From Escherichia coli (lineage in GTDB: Bacteria > Pseudomonadota > Gammaproteobacteria > Enterobacterales > Enterobacteriaceae), in NCBI RefSeq assembly GCF_013122565.1, contig NZ_CP053258.1: a stretch of 64,000 nucleotides of DNA; one strand, 5' to 3'. The notes beneath the pieces are model-generated. The model did no database searches, was not told the DNA's origin, and saw only the letters and a program-made list of their open reading frames with translations. The translations under genes and the position numbers were made by a program. Shown here in pieces: positions 27,067-34,520 of the stretch (positions are counted from its first letter, which is position 1; the number at the start of each line of letters is the position of its first letter).

Positions 27067-27093
27067 TAGAATAGTTATGCCTGACGTTAATAC

Positions 27094-27128
27094 AAACCCA
27101 GTCTATCAGACTGGGTTTGTTAGTATTT
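27094..27128 (+). terminator. Intrinsic terminator after glcA
   Basis: aaacccagtct...agactgggttt hairpin followed by gttagtattt. Confidence 0.6.
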
Positions 27129-27478
27129 CCGATATCAGACAGGGAAAATGCCTGGTCAGAAATGGGGCGTAATTCGGTTTTCTCAAAAAAGTAAAAAACG
27201 CCTTGTGGGCGGGGGATTATCTTACGACATGTAATTTGTTCCATACTTTTAAACTCCCCATTGTTATGAAGTAAAGGCGTTATCTTTTTATCCGTTCAAA
27301 CTTTAGCTCAAATTTGTAGCATGCAGATTCCGGTATTTTTCCTGATACCAGAAAAAAGTCACTGGAGGAAAGGTTGTGATAAAAATCACAAATTAAGTCA
27401 GGTTACTGGAGATAAAGTCTGCAACAGAGAATTATCGTAGTCTGTGTACCTCAACCAGTATTTTAAAGGCTCTGCTAC

Positions 27479-28975
27479 ATGGAAGAAAACACAAGGCAGC
27501 GTACAGAAAATTATATTTCAGCAAAAAACCAGCATCCCGCCTGGATACTCCTTGCCACTCGCCGTGCTCCACTGGTATTGAGTTGCCTGAAAACGCTTTT
27601 TGAAAAATCACATGATGGCATTCCCCTTGAGGAAGCTATTCAGTCTCTTTCCAGTATTCTCATTGAGCATGTGAGTCAGGAACAGTATGACATTAATCAG
27701 GACAATCCATTTCTTCAGGCCAGTCGTGAACTGCGGGAGTGGATTAAACGCCGTTTAATTGTCGAACGGGATGGCCGTATTTTTGCTACCGATGCGCTTG
27801 AGGTCGCGATTACGTTTGTAGAGTCTCTGGATAATCGTTTTATGACCTCTACGGCTTCCCGTTTGTCCACCGTTCAGCGAGAAATTGAAAACCTGGAAAC
27901 ACGGCTTAATCCTAACCCGGCAAACCGGGTTGCAACCTTACGTCGTCGTATTTCTGAACTGGAACGCGAACTACAGGAGGCAGAAGCCGGGCATATTGAG
28001 GTGCTGGAAACGCACCAGGCGGTTGAGCATATTCGTGATGTCTACAATTTAGCTTCCAGCCTGAGGGCTGACTTTCGTCGTGTTGAAGACTCCTGGCGTG
28101 AGGCTGACCGCGCTCTTCGCCAATCCATTATTGGTGAGCAATATCATCGTGGCGATATAGTAGAACGCCTGCTCAACGATCAGGACGCGCTGCTTAATAC
28201 GCCGGAAGGAAGAGTTTTCGACAGCTTTCAGCAACAGCTCCGTCAATCTTCTGAACTTAAAGCGATGAGTGAACGATTACGTGTGATCCTTAGCCATCCT
28301 TCTGCTTCTGATGCGCTTAACCGTCTACAGCGTCACGATCTGCGCTGGCTGGTTAAACGCTTGGTCGATGAATCGCAAACTGTCCTCCAGGCTCGCGCCC
28401 GTAGCGAGCGTGATGTCCGTGGTTTCATGAAAACCGGTCTTGCTGCTGAACATCATCGTGTTGGTCATTTGCTTAATGAGTTTCTGAATCTGGCGTTAAA
28501 ACTCGACTGGCAGCGCCAGATGATTCGTAAACAAGAGGTGCCGCTACCTGCCGTTGGTGTGGCGGTAACAGGCATCCCCGCTATTGAACGTTTACGTTTT
28601 AAAGAAGTGGATGATGAAGCAGAGCAGACGTTGGATCTCAGTAATCATGCGGCAGATTTAACGCAGATTGGCGATGATTTCTGGGATGCCTTCAATGGCC
28701 TCGATCGTGAGGTGTTGATTCAGCAGACGTTGCAGCTTCTGGCAAAAGAGAATCGCCCCGTTGGTTTAGCTGAACTGGCGGAGCTGTTGCCCCCGGCTCA
28801 CGATCTCGAAACATTCGCCGTCTGGATTGGTATGGCGAGAGAAGCGGGTATTGAGGTTATTGATTCACAACGTGAATTTGCTGAGCTTAGTGATGGGGAA
28901 GGTCGCCGCTGGCGATTTAATCTGCCCACCACTGGTCTGGAAAGTCAGGCATTAATGGATATCGATTGGGAGTAA
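27479..28975 (+). CDS. jetA: Wadjet JetA (MksF-like kleisin-type subunit)
   Basis: 498 aa, predicted coiled-coil-rich; first gene of a 498/249/1095/382-aa operon matching JetABCD size and order. Confidence 0.7.
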   Translation: MEENTRQRTENYISAKNQHPAWILLATRRAPLVLSCLKTLFEKSHDGIPLEEAIQSLSSILIEHVSQEQYDINQDNPFLQASRELREWIKRRLIVERDGRIFATDALEVAITFVESLDNRFMTSTASRLSTVQREIENLETRLNPNPANRVATLRRRISELERELQEAEAGHIEVLETHQAVEHIRDVYNLASSLRADFRRVEDSWREADRALRQSIIGEQYHRGDIVERLLNDQDALLNTPEGRVFDSFQQQLRQSSELKAMSERLRVILSHPSASDALNRLQRHDLRWLVKRLVDESQTVLQARARSERDVRGFMKTGLAAEHHRVGHLLNEFLNLALKLDWQRQMIRKQEVPLPAVGVAVTGIPAIERLRFKEVDDEAEQTLDLSNHAADLTQIGDDFWDAFNGLDREVLIQQTLQLLAKENRPVGLAELAELLPPAHDLETFAVWIGMAREAGIEVIDSQREFAELSDGEGRRWRFNLPTTGLESQALMDIDWE

Positions 28976-28980
28976 CAGGT

Positions 28981-32700: not shown

Positions 32701-33014
32701 TCGCTTCTTACGTGTTAACAGCTTCACTTAGCTACGCACTTTGTCCTGCGGGGAGCCGTTATCCGCTTTTCGGTACCATTATCCTTGATGAAGCCTTCTC
32801 CCGCAGTTCTCATGCGGTGGCGGGTAGGATCATTGCCGCGCTTAGAGAATTTGGCTTACATGCAGTATTTATCACCCCAAATAAGGAAATGCGCCTGCTG
32901 CGTGACCATACTCGTTCGGCGATTGTTGTCCACCGGCGCGGTCAGAATTCCAATATGGCCTCTCTGAGCTGGGAAGAGCTTGAACGACACTACCAGCGAC
33001 GGGGGAACGCGTAG
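29727..33014 (+). CDS. jetC: Wadjet JetC (MksB-like SMC-family ATPase)
   Basis: 1095 aa; N-terminal Walker A GPTGSGKTT, long coiled-coil middle, C-terminal signature-like SQGGSGGEKE and Walker B ILDEAF. Confidence 0.8.
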   Translation: MNQVSGLAGKESFILTRIELFNWGGFHGLHQAAIHQDGTAVIGPTGSGKTTLVDALMTLLCANPRYNLASTGGHESDRDLISYVRGVSGPGDGGEGQSHIARPGKTVTGIAATLEREGKQVRLGALLWFDSTSSSVTDMKRLWLFSDNPGQTLEHWLNVYHEGGTRLLRQMEKEAIGLWTYPNKKQYLARLRDFFEVGENAFTLLNRAAGLKQLNSIDEIFRELVLDDHSAFDRAAEVANSFDGLTEIHQELETARKQQQSLQPVALSWEKYQKQERQLADWLTLESLLPLWFAQQASHLWREKINLLNARLAEAQTSEEQLQSQLDLQKKVVSDCMQRYLQVGGANIDELNERIKDWQKTLGSREALARQYQQLTRNLGLPSDLSQPQLEANQHEAEARCEQIAVDIKLKQEEAYQKGALSHHITEELRERENERAEIARRPDSNLPAHYQAFRSELAKALNVDESELPFVAELIQVKPEEAQWRGAIERAVGSNRLRILVAPESAQEALRWVNQRNNRLHVRLLEVKLPHSPARFFDDGFTRKLLWKDHPWREAVKALLAESDRHCVDSPEQLHDTPHAMTVQGLMSGKQRFYDKHDQKRLDEDWLTGFDNRDRLNFLAKEIATLQEQVKTANAAFEFAKGEVGLLQNQAASFQKIEQIDFDSIDVPGAKSQLDALRERLENLTRPDSDASVAKAKLDEAQTIESELDKQLRAANKVTNVLDTELTLARAAERKAQQTAQQGMKEEERELCASHFPVVTLEQLPDIRDLERQHERGIQHEIERVKAELHRLNIELTKRMSEAKRVDTGALVEAGADLDDIPVYLQRLQELTEEALPEKLNRFLDYLNRSSDDGVTQLLSHIEHEVLVIEERLNELNETMFRVDFQPDRYLRLDTKKVVHESLRTLEKAQRQLNAARFVDDNGESHYKALQVLVAQLRDACERNRTLGAKALLDPRFRLEFAVSVMDRQSGNVIESRTGSQGGSGGEKEIIASYVLTASLSYALCPAGSRYPLFGTIILDEAFSRSSHAVAGRIIAALREFGLHAVFITPNKEMRLLRDHTRSAIVVHRRGQNSNMASLSWEELERHYQRRGNA

Positions 33015-33015
33015 G

Positions 33016-34164
33016 ATGTATTCCCCAGATGAATTGCGTGAAAAGCTTGCCCGGCAGTGGGATAGCGCAAAACTTCGGGCTGAACGCTTACTGTCCCCCG
33101 GTAACTGGCCGCTCTGCCTGCCTATTGGTAAACCTTCCACGAAAATATTTGCAGAGCAGACTCAGCGCGTTTTGCAGCACGTACAGCGATGGAGGCAAGT
33201 TGCGGTTGGGCACGTGGAATGGGAAGCGGTGAGTTTTCGGGCAAGTGATACACCAGTATTAATGCCGTTGCGCTGGATTCTGAATAGCCCTTCTGAGTGG
33301 ATCAACGCCGCTGCGGATCCGGTTGTGAGCCGGGAATTTCGCTTGCTGGAAGGAATTATTGAACAAGTTAATCCCATTTTTCACCCGCTGTTGGTAAAGC
33401 ATCGCTCTCTCTGGCGGCACAAAGATCCGCAGGGCGTCATCAGCGCCGCCACGCTGGCCTGCCGACTAGAGCCGGGCTGCGCAAAAGGGCTGCCGTTAAG
33501 ATTGCTTTCCGGGCAAGGAGTGGATACCAAATTTATCGAGAATAATATTTCGTTATTAACCCGACTGTTAGACGTGCGGTTTTCAGGAGAAGCCAGCGAG
33601 CAGGGATTAACAACTTTTCTTGATGCTTTTGATGAGTCCAGTCACTGGGTTTTAGTTGTACCATTATCACCCGGCTTACTTCCTTTTAAAAAATGCCGGG
33701 TAACAACGGCGGAACTGGCAGAAACAACATTACCCGCGTCGCAAGTGCTGGTGGTTGAAAATGAGCAGTGTCTGCATCATCTTCCAGCATTATCTGACAC
33801 TATCGCGATTTTAGGCTGTGGCCTGGACGTGCAATGGCTATCCAGTTCGGTTCTGGATGAAAAACGCGTTGCCTATTGGGGGGACATGGATAGCTGGGGA
33901 TTACTGATGCTGGCGAGAGCCAGGCGCTGTCGTCCGACCCTTGATGCCCTGCTCATGAACCGTGAGTTGTTTGAGCAGTATGCCAGTCATAGCGCCGTTC
34001 CAGAACCGGTCATAGCGAAGGAAGCGGTACCCGATGGCTTGCTTAACGAAGAGGCCGATTTTTATCGCTACTTAACCCGTTTACCGCGTGGTCGTCTGGA
34101 GCAGGAGTTTTTGCCAGTGGGGATTGCGGAAGAGGCGCTTCTCAGGTGGGGAAAAGAGAGTTAA
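33016..34164 (+). CDS. jetD: Wadjet JetD (MksG-like Toprim-domain nuclease)
   Basis: 382 aa from MYSPDELREK; Toprim-like acidic motifs VVENE and YWGDMDSWG in C-terminal half; track ORF 32980 is an upstream extension. Confidence 0.75.
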   Translation: MYSPDELREKLARQWDSAKLRAERLLSPGNWPLCLPIGKPSTKIFAEQTQRVLQHVQRWRQVAVGHVEWEAVSFRASDTPVLMPLRWILNSPSEWINAAADPVVSREFRLLEGIIEQVNPIFHPLLVKHRSLWRHKDPQGVISAATLACRLEPGCAKGLPLRLLSGQGVDTKFIENNISLLTRLLDVRFSGEASEQGLTTFLDAFDESSHWVLVVPLSPGLLPFKKCRVTTAELAETTLPASQVLVVENEQCLHHLPALSDTIAILGCGLDVQWLSSSVLDEKRVAYWGDMDSWGLLMLARARRCRPTLDALLMNRELFEQYASHSAVPEPVIAKEAVPDGLLNEEADFYRYLTRLPRGRLEQEFLPVGIAEEALLRWGKES

Positions 34165-34520
34165 AAAAGTCATGCTTGTTCTGGAAGGTTATTTACGCGG
34201 TATTTTGGTAGTGGTTGCGAAAAGTCTGCGTTGATGGTCCTGATACCTTACCGGATAGAGGGACTTTCCATCAGTCAGTTTAGATACTGTGGCAACTGTC
34301 GCCTTTAGGTGGACAAATGCATAAATTATTAAACTATTAAATTTCTTGTTTTCTGGCGGCAGAGAGAAGGTATATCAGAGGGTACTGAGGTGTATAAAAG
34401 TCACGAACATCCGTGAAAAGGCGAAAAAACCAGCCAATAGATAATGCTTTGCAACGGCCAGAAATCTACCGTAGCCAGAAAGTGAAAAAGCCCCGCTTTG
34501 CAGCGAGGCCTTATGAATAG

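What the first reader, a model, noticed from the sequence alone, without database searches (positions are those of the whole stretch)
27067..34520. Island-like insertion next to pheV lacks an integrase and a recognisable direct repeat
The Wadjet operon lies between the glcA terminator and the 3' end of tRNA-Phe, a classic genomic-island integration hotspot. By eye, no integrase gene and no copy of the tRNA 3' end could be found between 27067 and 27478. The left junction is AT-rich and intergenic. This suggests an old, stabilised island or replacement by homologous recombination of flanking DNA rather than a recent site-specific integration.
Basis: partly seen in the sequence, partly recalled or inferred. 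Interest (0 to 1): 0.45.

Follow-up and report, generated by a model that had tools for sequence, protein, structure and literature searches.

The report
Decayed tRNA-Phe island carrying Wadjet
The plasmid-destroying Wadjet operon between glcA and the pheV tRNA gene is the remnant of an old tRNA-Phe genomic island that has lost its integrase and its left attachment repeat, so it is an ordinary, immobilised island and not a new kind of element.

Summary
Window 27067-34520 contains an intact type I Wadjet operon (jetABCD) and two short intergenic stretches. It has no integrase and no second copy of the pheV 3' end, by exact, mismatch and gapped searches.

- Close relatives of this operon in Erwinia, Cedecea, Pluralibacter and Klebsiella grimontii have a 20-nt direct repeat of the tRNA-Phe 3' end 500-620 bp upstream of jetA. 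In five genera a tRNA-Phe gene lies downstream of jetD.
- Leclercia keeps a truncated P4-like integrase at the tRNA-proximal end.
- The E. coli left intergenic region matches the island's left end only from 27220. Just before it, at 27187-27213, lies a relic of the native pheV terminator. The repeat and about 150 nt of island end have been deleted.
- The last 160 bp before pheV are 82-89% identical to the tRNA-proximal end of integrase-bearing pheV islands.

Only 8 of 5426 complete E. coli genomes carry the whole block, all at this locus. About 19 more carry IS- or deletion-truncated remnants. Synonymous divergence among carriers (0.044) equals that of the adjacent glc genes.

JetD is identical to the structurally solved E. 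coli GF4-3 JetD, so the operon's function is already known. Interest is low to moderate.

The parts
27057..27066 (+). Last codons of glcA. They encode the same amino acids as K-12 (L-V-S-stop) but with different codons. Homology to K-12-type and UTME-3-type E. coli stops at 27056.
27092..27120 (+). glcA terminator hairpin with a 13-bp stem. It is specific to the Wadjet-bearing haplotype and differs from the K-12 glcA terminator.
   Evidence: the 27040-27225 segment is found in only 13 of 5426 genomes
27187..27213 (-). Degenerate relic of the native pheV-downstream terminator (AAAAGTAAAAAACGCCTTGTGGGCGGG). This is the displaced chromosomal flank of attB. In K-12 the same sequence lies 15 nt from pheV. 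In K. grimontii it lies directly left of the island's direct repeat.
   Evidence: local alignment score 21 against a shuffle mean of 8.7, sd 1.2, max 15; the only copy in the window
27220..27478 (+). Remnant of the island's left end and the jet upstream region. It is 78-87% identical to the DNA between the direct repeat and jetA in Erwinia, Cedecea, Pluralibacter, K. grimontii and Kluyvera. The repeat plus about 150 nt of island end, and an internal stretch of about 75-80 bp, are missing.
27375..27390 (.). Perfect CRP-consensus palindrome TGTGATAAAAATCACA, 88 bp upstream of the jetA ATG and conserved in the other genera. Possible regulatory site; inferred only.
27479..28975 (+). jetA (498 aa, DUF3375)
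28966..29730 (+). jetB (254 aa from the TTG start; RefSeq's annotation of the equivalent gene starts at the position matching window 28981, giving 249 aa; DUF4194)
29727..33014 (+). jetC (1095 aa, SMC-like ATPase), intact
33016..34164 (+). jetD (382 aa, Toprim nuclease). It is identical to PDB 8Q72 chain M except for the engineered E248A. The longest ORF begins at a TTG at 32980.
34165..34520 (.). Island right-end remnant.
- 34256-34520 is shared at 96% with E. coli genomes that carry Tad/T6SS remnants instead of Wadjet.
- 34362-34520 is 82-89% identical to the tRNA-proximal end of integrase-bearing pheV islands.
34487..34512 (-). Island-borne terminator that now serves pheV (11-bp stem followed by a T run). 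It replaces the native terminator.
34521..34596 (-). pheV (tRNA-Phe GAA). The first 20 nt on the plus strand (34521-34540, TGGTGCCCGGACTCGGAATC) equal the direct-repeat core of the related islands.

Best explanation
The 7.4-kb block is the immobilised remnant of a genomic island that integrated site-specifically into the 3' end of a tRNA-Phe gene and carried a type I Wadjet operon as cargo.

Proposed history:
1. Integration pushed the native pheV terminator to the far (left) side of the island. The island's own terminator took its place next to the tRNA.
2. A deletion of about 180 bp then removed the left attachment repeat and the first ~150 nt of the island.
3. Another deletion removed everything between jetD and the last ~160-265 bp next to pheV, including a P4-type integrase.

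What is left is a self-contained jetABCD operon that cannot excise. It is inherited like chromosomal DNA and is kept under purifying selection in a few E. coli lineages. Elsewhere it is being eroded by IS elements and deletions.

What is shown:
- the operon's identity;
- the absence of an integrase and a repeat;
- the terminator relic;
- homology of both ends to island ends;
- direct repeats in four genera;
- an integrase fragment in Leclercia;
- rarity in E. coli, and core-like synonymous divergence.

What is inferred: the order of events, and that this particular copy once carried an integrase.

Function. The operon is the published E. coli GF4-3 JetABCD. According to those papers it extrudes DNA loops, recognises circular DNA up to about 100 kb, and cleaves it through JetD.
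For: 1. Direct repeat in relatives. TGGTGCC(C)GGACTCGGAATC|ATAT lies 500-620 bp upstream of jetA in Erwinia L007, Cedecea L008, Pluralibacter L009 and K. grimontii L012, always with the same core end point.
2. tRNA-Phe linkage. A tRNA-Phe gene with its 3' end facing jetD lies downstream of jetD in Erwinia, Leclercia, Mangrovibacter, Kosakonia and Kluyvera. In Kosakonia it is followed by yqgA-speC, as in E. coli.
3. Left end. The window aligns to the island left end only from 27220. Immediately before it is the relic of the native pheV terminator.
4. Right end. Positions 34362-34520 are 82-89% identical to the DNA between pheV and a P4-like integrase in about 229 E. coli genomes, for example YPE3.
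5. Integrase remnant. Leclercia keeps a truncated P4-like integrase (Arm-DNA-bind_3, E 1.3e-23) between the Wadjet module and a partial tRNA-Phe copy.
6. attB still usable. In CX12 a CP4-like island with its own 22-nt tRNA repeat sits between the Wadjet block and pheV, so the block lies on the outer side of a still-usable attB.
7. Horizontal origin. jet genes are 85-90.5% identical in nucleotide sequence between E. coli and Kosakonia or Mangrovibacter. The core genes speC, yqgA and mltC are 69-78% identical.
8. Age within E. coli. jet dS between the window and CX12 is 0.044 with dN/dS 0.11. Adjacent glcBA dS is 0.034-0.046. All four ORFs are intact.
9. Rarity and decay. 8 genomes carry the whole block and about 19 carry truncated copies, out of 5426.
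10. Function. JetD is identical to PDB 8Q72, and the operon is described in the GF4-3 papers.
Against: - No relative with both a complete integrase adjacent to tRNA-Phe and this Wadjet operon was recovered. The Erwinia island has both repeats but no integrase. The K. grimontii island was followed for about 30 kb past jetD without reaching an integrase or the tRNA.
- In Erwinia, Kosakonia, Kluyvera and Leclercia the tRNA keeps a native-type terminator on the island side. The right-end architecture therefore differs from E. coli and is not fully explained.
- Kosakonia and Mangrovibacter have no repeat and a different left end.
- The 120 bp between glcA and the terminator relic, and the recoded glcA end, have no identified source.
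Confidence: 0.75

Rival explanations
1. Allelic replacement. E. coli never experienced the integration itself. The whole glcA-to-pheV interval, with the island already decayed, was imported from a diverged relative by homologous recombination in glcA on the left and pheV/yqgA on the right, displacing the usual SslE/T2SS-beta cluster. It later spread in the species the same way. This is compatible with the best explanation for the ultimate origin and differs only in where the integration occurred.
For: - Homology to K-12-type genomes stops inside glcA. The last three codons are synonymous but differ at 5 of 9 nt, and a different terminator follows.
- The 27040-27225 junction is found only in Wadjet carriers, and no empty site exists in 5426 genomes.
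- At least three alternative gene sets occupy the same interval without an integrase: T2SS-beta/SslE, Tad+T6SS, and Wadjet.
- The terminator relic matches the K. grimontii and Leclercia versions as well as it matches K-12.
Against: - No donor with glcA next to tRNA-Phe was found. The single metagenome scan for the junction returned one more E. coli-like Wadjet contig.
- The glcA sequence just left of the break shows no block of elevated divergence.
- JetD remnants fused to a T6SS gene in 11 genomes show that the block also existed with a different left neighbour.
Confidence: 0.35
2. Ancestral chromosomal locus. Wadjet at pheV is an old Escherichia or enterobacterial core feature, inherited vertically and lost in most lineages.
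For: - Synonymous divergence among E. coli carriers equals that of neighbouring core genes.
- Truncated remnants occur in many genomes.
- Kosakonia has the same Wadjet-tRNA-Phe-yqgA-speC order.
Against: - Only about 27 of 5426 genomes show any trace.
- No Escherichia species representative was hit in the 100,044-species scan.
- jet genes are 10-20 points more similar between genera than core genes.
- Direct repeats of the tRNA end flank the operon in four genera.
Confidence: 0.07
3. Still-mobile integrase-less element. The block is moved in trans by integrases of co-resident pheV/pheU islands, like a cis-mobilizable element (CIME).
For: - The Erwinia copy has both repeats and no integrase.
- CP4-like islands integrate in tandem next to the block in CX12 and W444.
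- The CIME concept is described in PMC5704250.
Against: - The E. coli copy has lost the left att repeat in all 13 genomes that have the junction.
- Its divergence is core-like, not that of a recent spread.
- It is not found on plasmids.
Confidence: 0.05
4. Transposon- or IS-mediated insertion of the operon.
For: IS1, IS3 and ISKpn26 are active at this locus in other strains.
Against: - No terminal inverted repeats, target duplications or transposase genes are present in or around the block.
- The IS elements seen in other strains truncate the block and do not flank an intact one.
Confidence: 0.02

Closest known systems
E. coli GF4-3 JetABCD (type I Wadjet / JET nuclease; Liu et al. 2022 bioRxiv 10.1101/2022.10.04.510915; Roisne-Hamelin et al. 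2023 bioRxiv 10.1101/2023.11.03.565488; PDB 8Q72, 8AS8)
   Same: Same operon. JetD residues 13-394 of the window ORF are identical to 8Q72 chain M apart from the engineered E248A. JetA matches the PDB chains over its full length (1083 bits). The gene order is jetA-B-C-D.
   Different: Nothing differs at the protein level as far as tested. The 2022 paper does not discuss the native chromosomal context: the words tRNA and island do not occur in it. Whether the window is GF4-3 itself or a close relative was not established.
Classical pheV/pheU genomic islands of E. coli with a P4-like integrase (e.g. the island in strain YPE3; CP4-like islands in CX12 and MRY15-117)
   Same: - Same insertion site at the 3' end of pheV.
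- The tRNA-proximal 160 bp are homologous at 82-89%.
- The native pheV terminator is displaced to the far side.
- Distribution is sporadic.
   Different: No integrase, no distal direct repeat, only 7.4 kb, host-like GC content, and a single defence operon as content.
Cis-mobilizable elements (CIMEs): decayed integrative elements that keep attL and attR but have lost the integrase (PMC5704250)
   Same: - A decayed integrative element without an integrase.
- New islands accrete in tandem at the same att site, as in CX12 and W444.
- The Erwinia relative fits the definition: 65-bp repeats and no integrase.
   Different: The E. coli copy has lost one att site, so it no longer meets the definition. 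No mobilisation has been shown for any member.
Defence hotspot #5 (yghD / tRNA-Phe / yqgA) of Hochhauser, Millman and Sorek 2023 (PMC10121019)
   Same: [quoted passage not shown]
   Different: That survey anchors the hotspot on yghD, which is absent here, so this configuration may have been scored as 'hotspot not found' (my inference). The Wadjet entries retrieved from its supplement are Wadjet_III, at least one of them at hotspot #37, and the main text says Wadjet-carrying elements prefer hotspot #37.
SslE / T2SS-beta cluster between glcA and pheV (PMC3707838)
   Same: It occupies exactly the same glcA-pheV interval, also without an integrase. The locus is described as hypervariable, with repeated losses.
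   Different: Unrelated gene content. It is the majority state. The native pheV terminator stays next to pheV, so it does not show the footprint of a pheV-integrated island.

Membership tests
Type I Wadjet (JetABCD) | Four co-directional genes: jetA (DUF3375), jetB (DUF4194), jetC (SMC-like ATPase) and jetD (DUF3322/JetD_C Toprim nuclease) | tested here: met
   PADLOC JetA1, JetB1, JetC1 and JetD1 full-length hits. Pfam families of the same genes in L045/L046.
Type I Wadjet (JetABCD) | Intact reading frames under purifying selection | tested here: met
   No internal stops. dN/dS is 0.11 against strain CX12.
Type I Wadjet (JetABCD) | Demonstrated restriction and cleavage of circular plasmid DNA | not testable with these tools
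   Shown experimentally for the identical GF4-3 proteins in the cited papers. Not tested here.
tRNA-associated genomic island (classical) | Located at the 3' end of a tRNA gene | tested here: met
   The block ends at 34520, and the pheV 3' end is at 34521.
tRNA-associated genomic island (classical) | Direct repeat of the tRNA 3' end at the distal boundary | tested here: not met
   None in the window. Present in the orthologous islands of four other genera.
tRNA-associated genomic island (classical) | Integrase gene, usually next to the tRNA | tested here: not met
   None in the 64-kb window. A truncated P4-like integrase is present at the equivalent place in Leclercia.
tRNA-associated genomic island (classical) | Sporadic distribution among strains of the species | tested here: met
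   8 of 5426 genomes carry the whole block, and 13 have the left junction.
tRNA-associated genomic island (classical) | Base composition different from the host | tested here: not met
   The operon has GC of about 0.47-0.55, like the flanks. Only the 412-bp left intergenic region is AT-rich.
tRNA-associated genomic island (classical) | Native tRNA-downstream flank displaced to the distal side of the insert | tested here: met
   Terminator relic at 27187-27213.
Cis-mobilizable element (CIME) | Both att sites retained, with integration and transfer genes lost | tested here: not met
   The left att is missing in E. coli. The feature is met in Erwinia L007, which has repeats at 3877 and 14187 and no integrase.
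Transposon / IS composite | Terminal inverted repeats, target-site duplication, transposase | tested here: not met
E. coli core genome | Present at this position in most lineages | tested here: not met

The most novel reading that the evidence does not exclude
This Wadjet lineage, often with a linked ~700-aa Schlafen/AlbA_2-HATPase protein, may form a family of small defence modules specialised for tRNA-Phe. In this reading the modules persist as att-flanked but integrase-less elements (CIME-like) across Enterobacterales. They would be moved between genera in trans, or by tandem accretion with P4-like-integrase islands that use the same tRNA. The E. coli copy would be the dead-end, fully immobilised state. 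A conserved perfect CRP site upstream of jetA would additionally place the operon under catabolite control.
Probability: 0.2. Interest if true: 0.45.

Novelty: new member of a known kind. Interest (0 to 1): 0.3.

Why it matters
- It gives the native chromosomal context of the E. coli Wadjet system that is used as the structural and biochemical model. That context, including a conserved candidate CRP site, is relevant to how the system is expressed in nature.
- It is a worked example of how a defence operon becomes a fixed chromosomal gene set after its vehicle decays.
- It shows why hotspot surveys anchored on K-12 flanking genes can miss such cases.
- It shows that the glcA-pheV interval holds several mutually exclusive gene sets: T2SS-beta/SslE, Tad+T6SS, Wadjet, and integrase-bearing islands.

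None of this overturns current ideas.

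Tried and rejected
- A degenerate repeat at 27073-27097 (GAATAG followed by TTATGCC) that MAFFT placed under the repeat of the other genera. Local alignment is no better than shuffles. Rejected.
- Shared T6SS ancestry. T6SS genes lie left of Wadjet in Kosakonia and Mangrovibacter and in E. coli 14EC033/UTME-3. tblastn found no homology between them. The adjacency is treated as coincidental.
- A full-length integrase next to tRNA-Phe in a complete relative. I walked about 30 kb rightward from jetD in K. grimontii with two exact-protein look-ups and reached only fimbrial operons, PerC, IS66 fragments and more cargo. 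Not resolved.
- An empty site or donor for the window-type glcA end. There is none among 5426 E. coli genomes. The single metagenome scan returned one more Wadjet-bearing E. coli-like contig.
- Plasmid carriage of the block. No match in 72,556 plasmids.
- Known RNA families in the intergenic regions. Only the tRNA was found.
- Remnants of neighbouring island genes (Schlafen-like, AbiEi, integrase) in 34165-34520 by blastx. Nothing convincing; the best hit was E 0.012.
- Transposon-like terminal repeats. None.
- The apparent jetC pseudogene in RefSeq carriers. The ORF is intact, so this is an annotation artefact.

Full report
**What is in the window**

ARAGORN finds one tRNA, tRNA-Phe (GAA), at 34521-34596 on the minus strand, so its 3' end faces left. 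To the left are glcB (22858-25029) and glcA (25384-27066). To the right are yqgA and speC. This is the K-12 order around pheV.

Between glcA and pheV the only long ORFs are four overlapping, co-directional genes. PADLOC assigns them end to end to type I Wadjet JetA, JetB, JetC and JetD. The operon has host-like GC content. Only the 412-bp stretch upstream of jetA is AT-rich, at 0.40.

**Check of the observation**

- The 23-nt pheV 3' end occurs only in the tRNA itself, at up to 3 mismatches, in the whole window.
- No 9-mer from the last 45 nt of the tRNA recurs in 27000-34520.
- Gapped local alignment is no better than shuffled sequence.
- blastx of the window against integrases taken from related islands finds nothing.
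- No terminal direct or inverted repeats bracket the block.

**Breakpoints against other E. coli**

Most E. coli genomes share glcA up to about window 27056-27059 (4364 genomes) and pheV-yqgA from about window 34510-34521 (5425 genomes). Only 12 cross the left junction and only 7 cross the right junction.

Against K-12, homology ends at 27056 and resumes at 34510. In K-12 the interval holds sslE-pppA-gspS2-gspC-gspL'-yghD. The T2SS-beta cluster is known to sit next to pheV in a hypervariable locus (PMC3707838).

The whole 7.4-kb block is present in 8 of 5426 complete genomes, at 98.4-98.6% identity and always at this locus. About 19 further genomes carry fragments:

- jetD 3' ends cut by IS1 (PT62);
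- a jetD 3' end fused to a truncated T6SS tssL gene (14EC033);
- an internal jetA-jetD deletion (W444);
- IS3 or ISKpn26 truncations.

The block is not on any of 72,556 plasmids.

**Relatives in other genera**

A scan of one genome per species (100,044 species) with JetD found close relatives, with Jet proteins 79-97% identical, in contigs labelled Erwinia, Cedecea, Pluralibacter, Enterobacter, Leclercia, Klebsiella grimontii, Mangrovibacter, Kosakonia, Kluyvera and Martelella alba (an alphaproteobacterium). No Escherichia representative was hit.

In five of them a tRNA-Phe gene with the same orientation lies downstream of jetD. In Kosakonia it is followed by yqgA-speC, as in E. coli.

In Erwinia, Cedecea, Pluralibacter and K. 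grimontii a copy of the first 20 nt of the tRNA 3' end (TGGTGCC(C)GGACTCGGAATC, then ATAT) lies 500-620 bp upstream of jetA. The end point is the same in all four. These are the attachment repeats of a single island family.

The jet genes are 85-90.5% identical in nucleotide sequence between E. coli and Kosakonia or Mangrovibacter. The linked core genes are only 69-78% identical. The operon has therefore moved horizontally since these genera diverged.

**The left boundary in E. coli**

The window's left intergenic region aligns with the island left end of those genera only from 27220. It shows 78-82% identity over 27220-27292 and 83-87% over 27288-27478, with an internal deletion of about 75-80 bp between the two stretches.

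Immediately to the left, at 27187-27213, is AAAAGTAAAAAACGCCTTGTGGGCGGG. This is a slightly damaged copy of the terminator that lies 15 nt downstream of pheV in K-12. In K. grimontii the same terminator lies directly left of the island's repeat.

The match scores 21, against a shuffle mean of 8.7 (sd 1.2, max 15), and it is the only copy in the window. The K. grimontii terminator-plus-repeat segment occurs about once per genome in 4095 E. coli genomes. It lies either at pheV or at the far end of pheV islands.

The simplest reading is that integration displaced the native flank to the far side. A deletion of about 180 bp later removed the spacer, the 20-nt repeat and about 146 nt of island end. 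All 13 E. coli genomes with this junction share the deletion, in two haplotypes at 100% and 96.8% identity to the window.

**The right boundary**

The tRNA is now followed by a different terminator, at 34487-34512 on the minus strand.

The last 160 bp (34362-34520) are 82-89% identical to the DNA between pheV and a P4-like integrase in about 229 E. coli genomes. Examples are YPE3 and MRY15-117. The MRY15-117 integrase has Arm-DNA-bind_3, Phage_int_M and Phage_integrase domains.

The last 265 bp are shared at 96% with two genomes that carry Tad-pilus and T6SS remnants instead of Wadjet.

In Leclercia a truncated P4-like integrase (Arm-DNA-bind_3, E 1.3e-23) lies between the Wadjet module and a partial tRNA-Phe copy. 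Together these results suggest that the integrase module was deleted from the E. coli copy, leaving only the att-proximal sequence. That step is inferred, not shown.

**Position relative to attB**

In CX12 a CP4-like island sits between the Wadjet block and pheV. It begins with its own 22-nt copy of the tRNA end. W444 is similar. The pheV site therefore remains usable by other islands, and the Wadjet block lies on its outer side.

**Age and selection**

- Between the window and CX12 the four jet genes differ at 91 nucleotides and 24 amino acids. dS is 0.044 and dN/dS is 0.11.
- The adjacent glcB and glcA genes give dS 0.034, or 0.046 against K-12.
- The flanks are 98-99% identical to other E. 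coli.

The block has diverged in step with its chromosomal surroundings and is functionally maintained. This fits "old and stabilised" and argues against recent mobility.

**Homologous-recombination component**

The last three glcA codons encode the same residues as in K-12 but differ at 5 of 9 nt. They are followed by a different terminator and a 120-bp spacer found only in Wadjet carriers.

The left boundary therefore lies within glcA-homologous sequence from a different glcA lineage. This is what allelic replacement of the whole interval would leave. No donor or empty site was found, so this remains a plausible additional step and is not demonstrated.

**Function**

Residues 13-394 of the window's JetD ORF are identical to PDB 8Q72 chain M (JetD E248A). 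JetA matches the same entries over its full length.

These are the E. coli GF4-3 proteins. [quoted passage not shown] GF4-3 is a guinea-fowl isolate of ST9286, reported to carry no plasmids.

The 2022 paper does not mention the native locus, and no paper in the library combines Wadjet with pheV.

Hochhauser et al. list pheV as defence hotspot #5, anchored on yghD and yqgA. Because yghD is missing here, that method may not have detected this configuration (my inference). The Wadjet entries retrieved from their supplement are type III, and their text says Wadjet-carrying elements prefer hotspot #37.

**Verdict**

This is a decayed tRNA-Phe island with a recognisable attB-flank footprint, carrying an already characterised defence operon. 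It is a new, well-documented example of a known kind of element, of modest interest.

Noticed in passing
window 27375-27390: Perfect CRP-consensus palindrome TGTGATAAAAATCACA, 88 bp upstream of the jetA start. Only two such sites occur in 64 kb, against 0.03 expected. The site is conserved upstream of jetA in Erwinia, Cedecea, Pluralibacter, K. grimontii and Kluyvera. No paper was found that links CRP to Wadjet.
   Followed up: partly
window 56821-56836: Second perfect TGTGA-N6-TCACA site in the window (TGTGAAGCAAATCACA). Its context was not examined.
   Followed up: no
L001 8661-11948 (CX12), equivalent to window 29727-33014: RefSeq annotates jetC in all eight complete-genome carriers as a truncated pseudogene plus a separate 448-aa protein. 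The 1095-codon ORF has no internal stop, so this is an annotation artefact.
   Followed up: yes
L006 6396-20028 (UTME-3); L055 1880-9598 (14EC033): A third, integrase-less occupant of the glcA-pheV interval: a Flp/Tad pilus cluster plus T6SS genes. In 11 genomes a truncated tssL (DotU) gene is followed about 80 bp later by the 3' part of jetD. Wadjet therefore once sat to the right of this cluster as well.
   Followed up: partly
L007 11164-13353; L008 11236-13311; L011 1890-3986; L013 10220-11476: A ~700-aa protein with Schlafen/AlbA_2 and HATPase_c_4 domains lies immediately downstream of jetD in Erwinia, Cedecea and Leclercia, and is truncated in Mangrovibacter. It has only weak PADLOC similarity to Argonaute-associated PNTD proteins. 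It is absent from E. coli. In Cedecea it is followed by Avs2.
   Followed up: partly
L007 3832-3896 and 14142-14206: In Erwinia the direct repeat is about 65 bp. It includes 45 nt of the tRNA-downstream terminator as well as 20 nt of the tRNA. The locus also has two tandem tRNA-Phe genes (14187-14262 and 14281-14355). A repeat this long is not explained by a simple 20-nt core crossover.
   Followed up: no
L011 4202-4540 (minus strand) and 4698-4715: Leclercia has a truncated P4-like integrase next to a partial tRNA-Phe 3' copy. That copy lies left of a complete native flank, terminator and tRNA-Phe unit. The arrangement does not fit a single simple integration.
   Followed up: partly
L008 3484-3804 (minus strand) and 19452-20363: Cedecea has a P4-like integrase N-terminal fragment just left of the Wadjet island's repeat, which suggests tandem accretion on an older island. 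It also has an Integrase_1/Phage_int_SAM_2 recombinase 8 kb downstream of jetD.
   Followed up: partly
L015 (contig labelled Martelella alba BGMRC 2031): A contig attributed to an alphaproteobacterium carries a jet operon 79-89% identical in protein sequence to the E. coli one. This suggests contamination or mislabelling, or a long-range transfer.
   Followed up: no
window 8800-16518: About 7.7 kb with several ORFs of 190-580 aa has no counterpart in the PT62 locus, which has an IS1-linked deletion there. It also lies just outside the left end of the K-12 locus that was retrieved, which begins with an IS5. The content was not examined.
   Followed up: no
L057 11538-12819: The only metagenome contig with the window-type glcA/Wadjet junction (human gut) matches window 22491-34025 at 98.9%. 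Its last 1.3 kb do not match the window where glcG/glcF would be expected.
   Followed up: no
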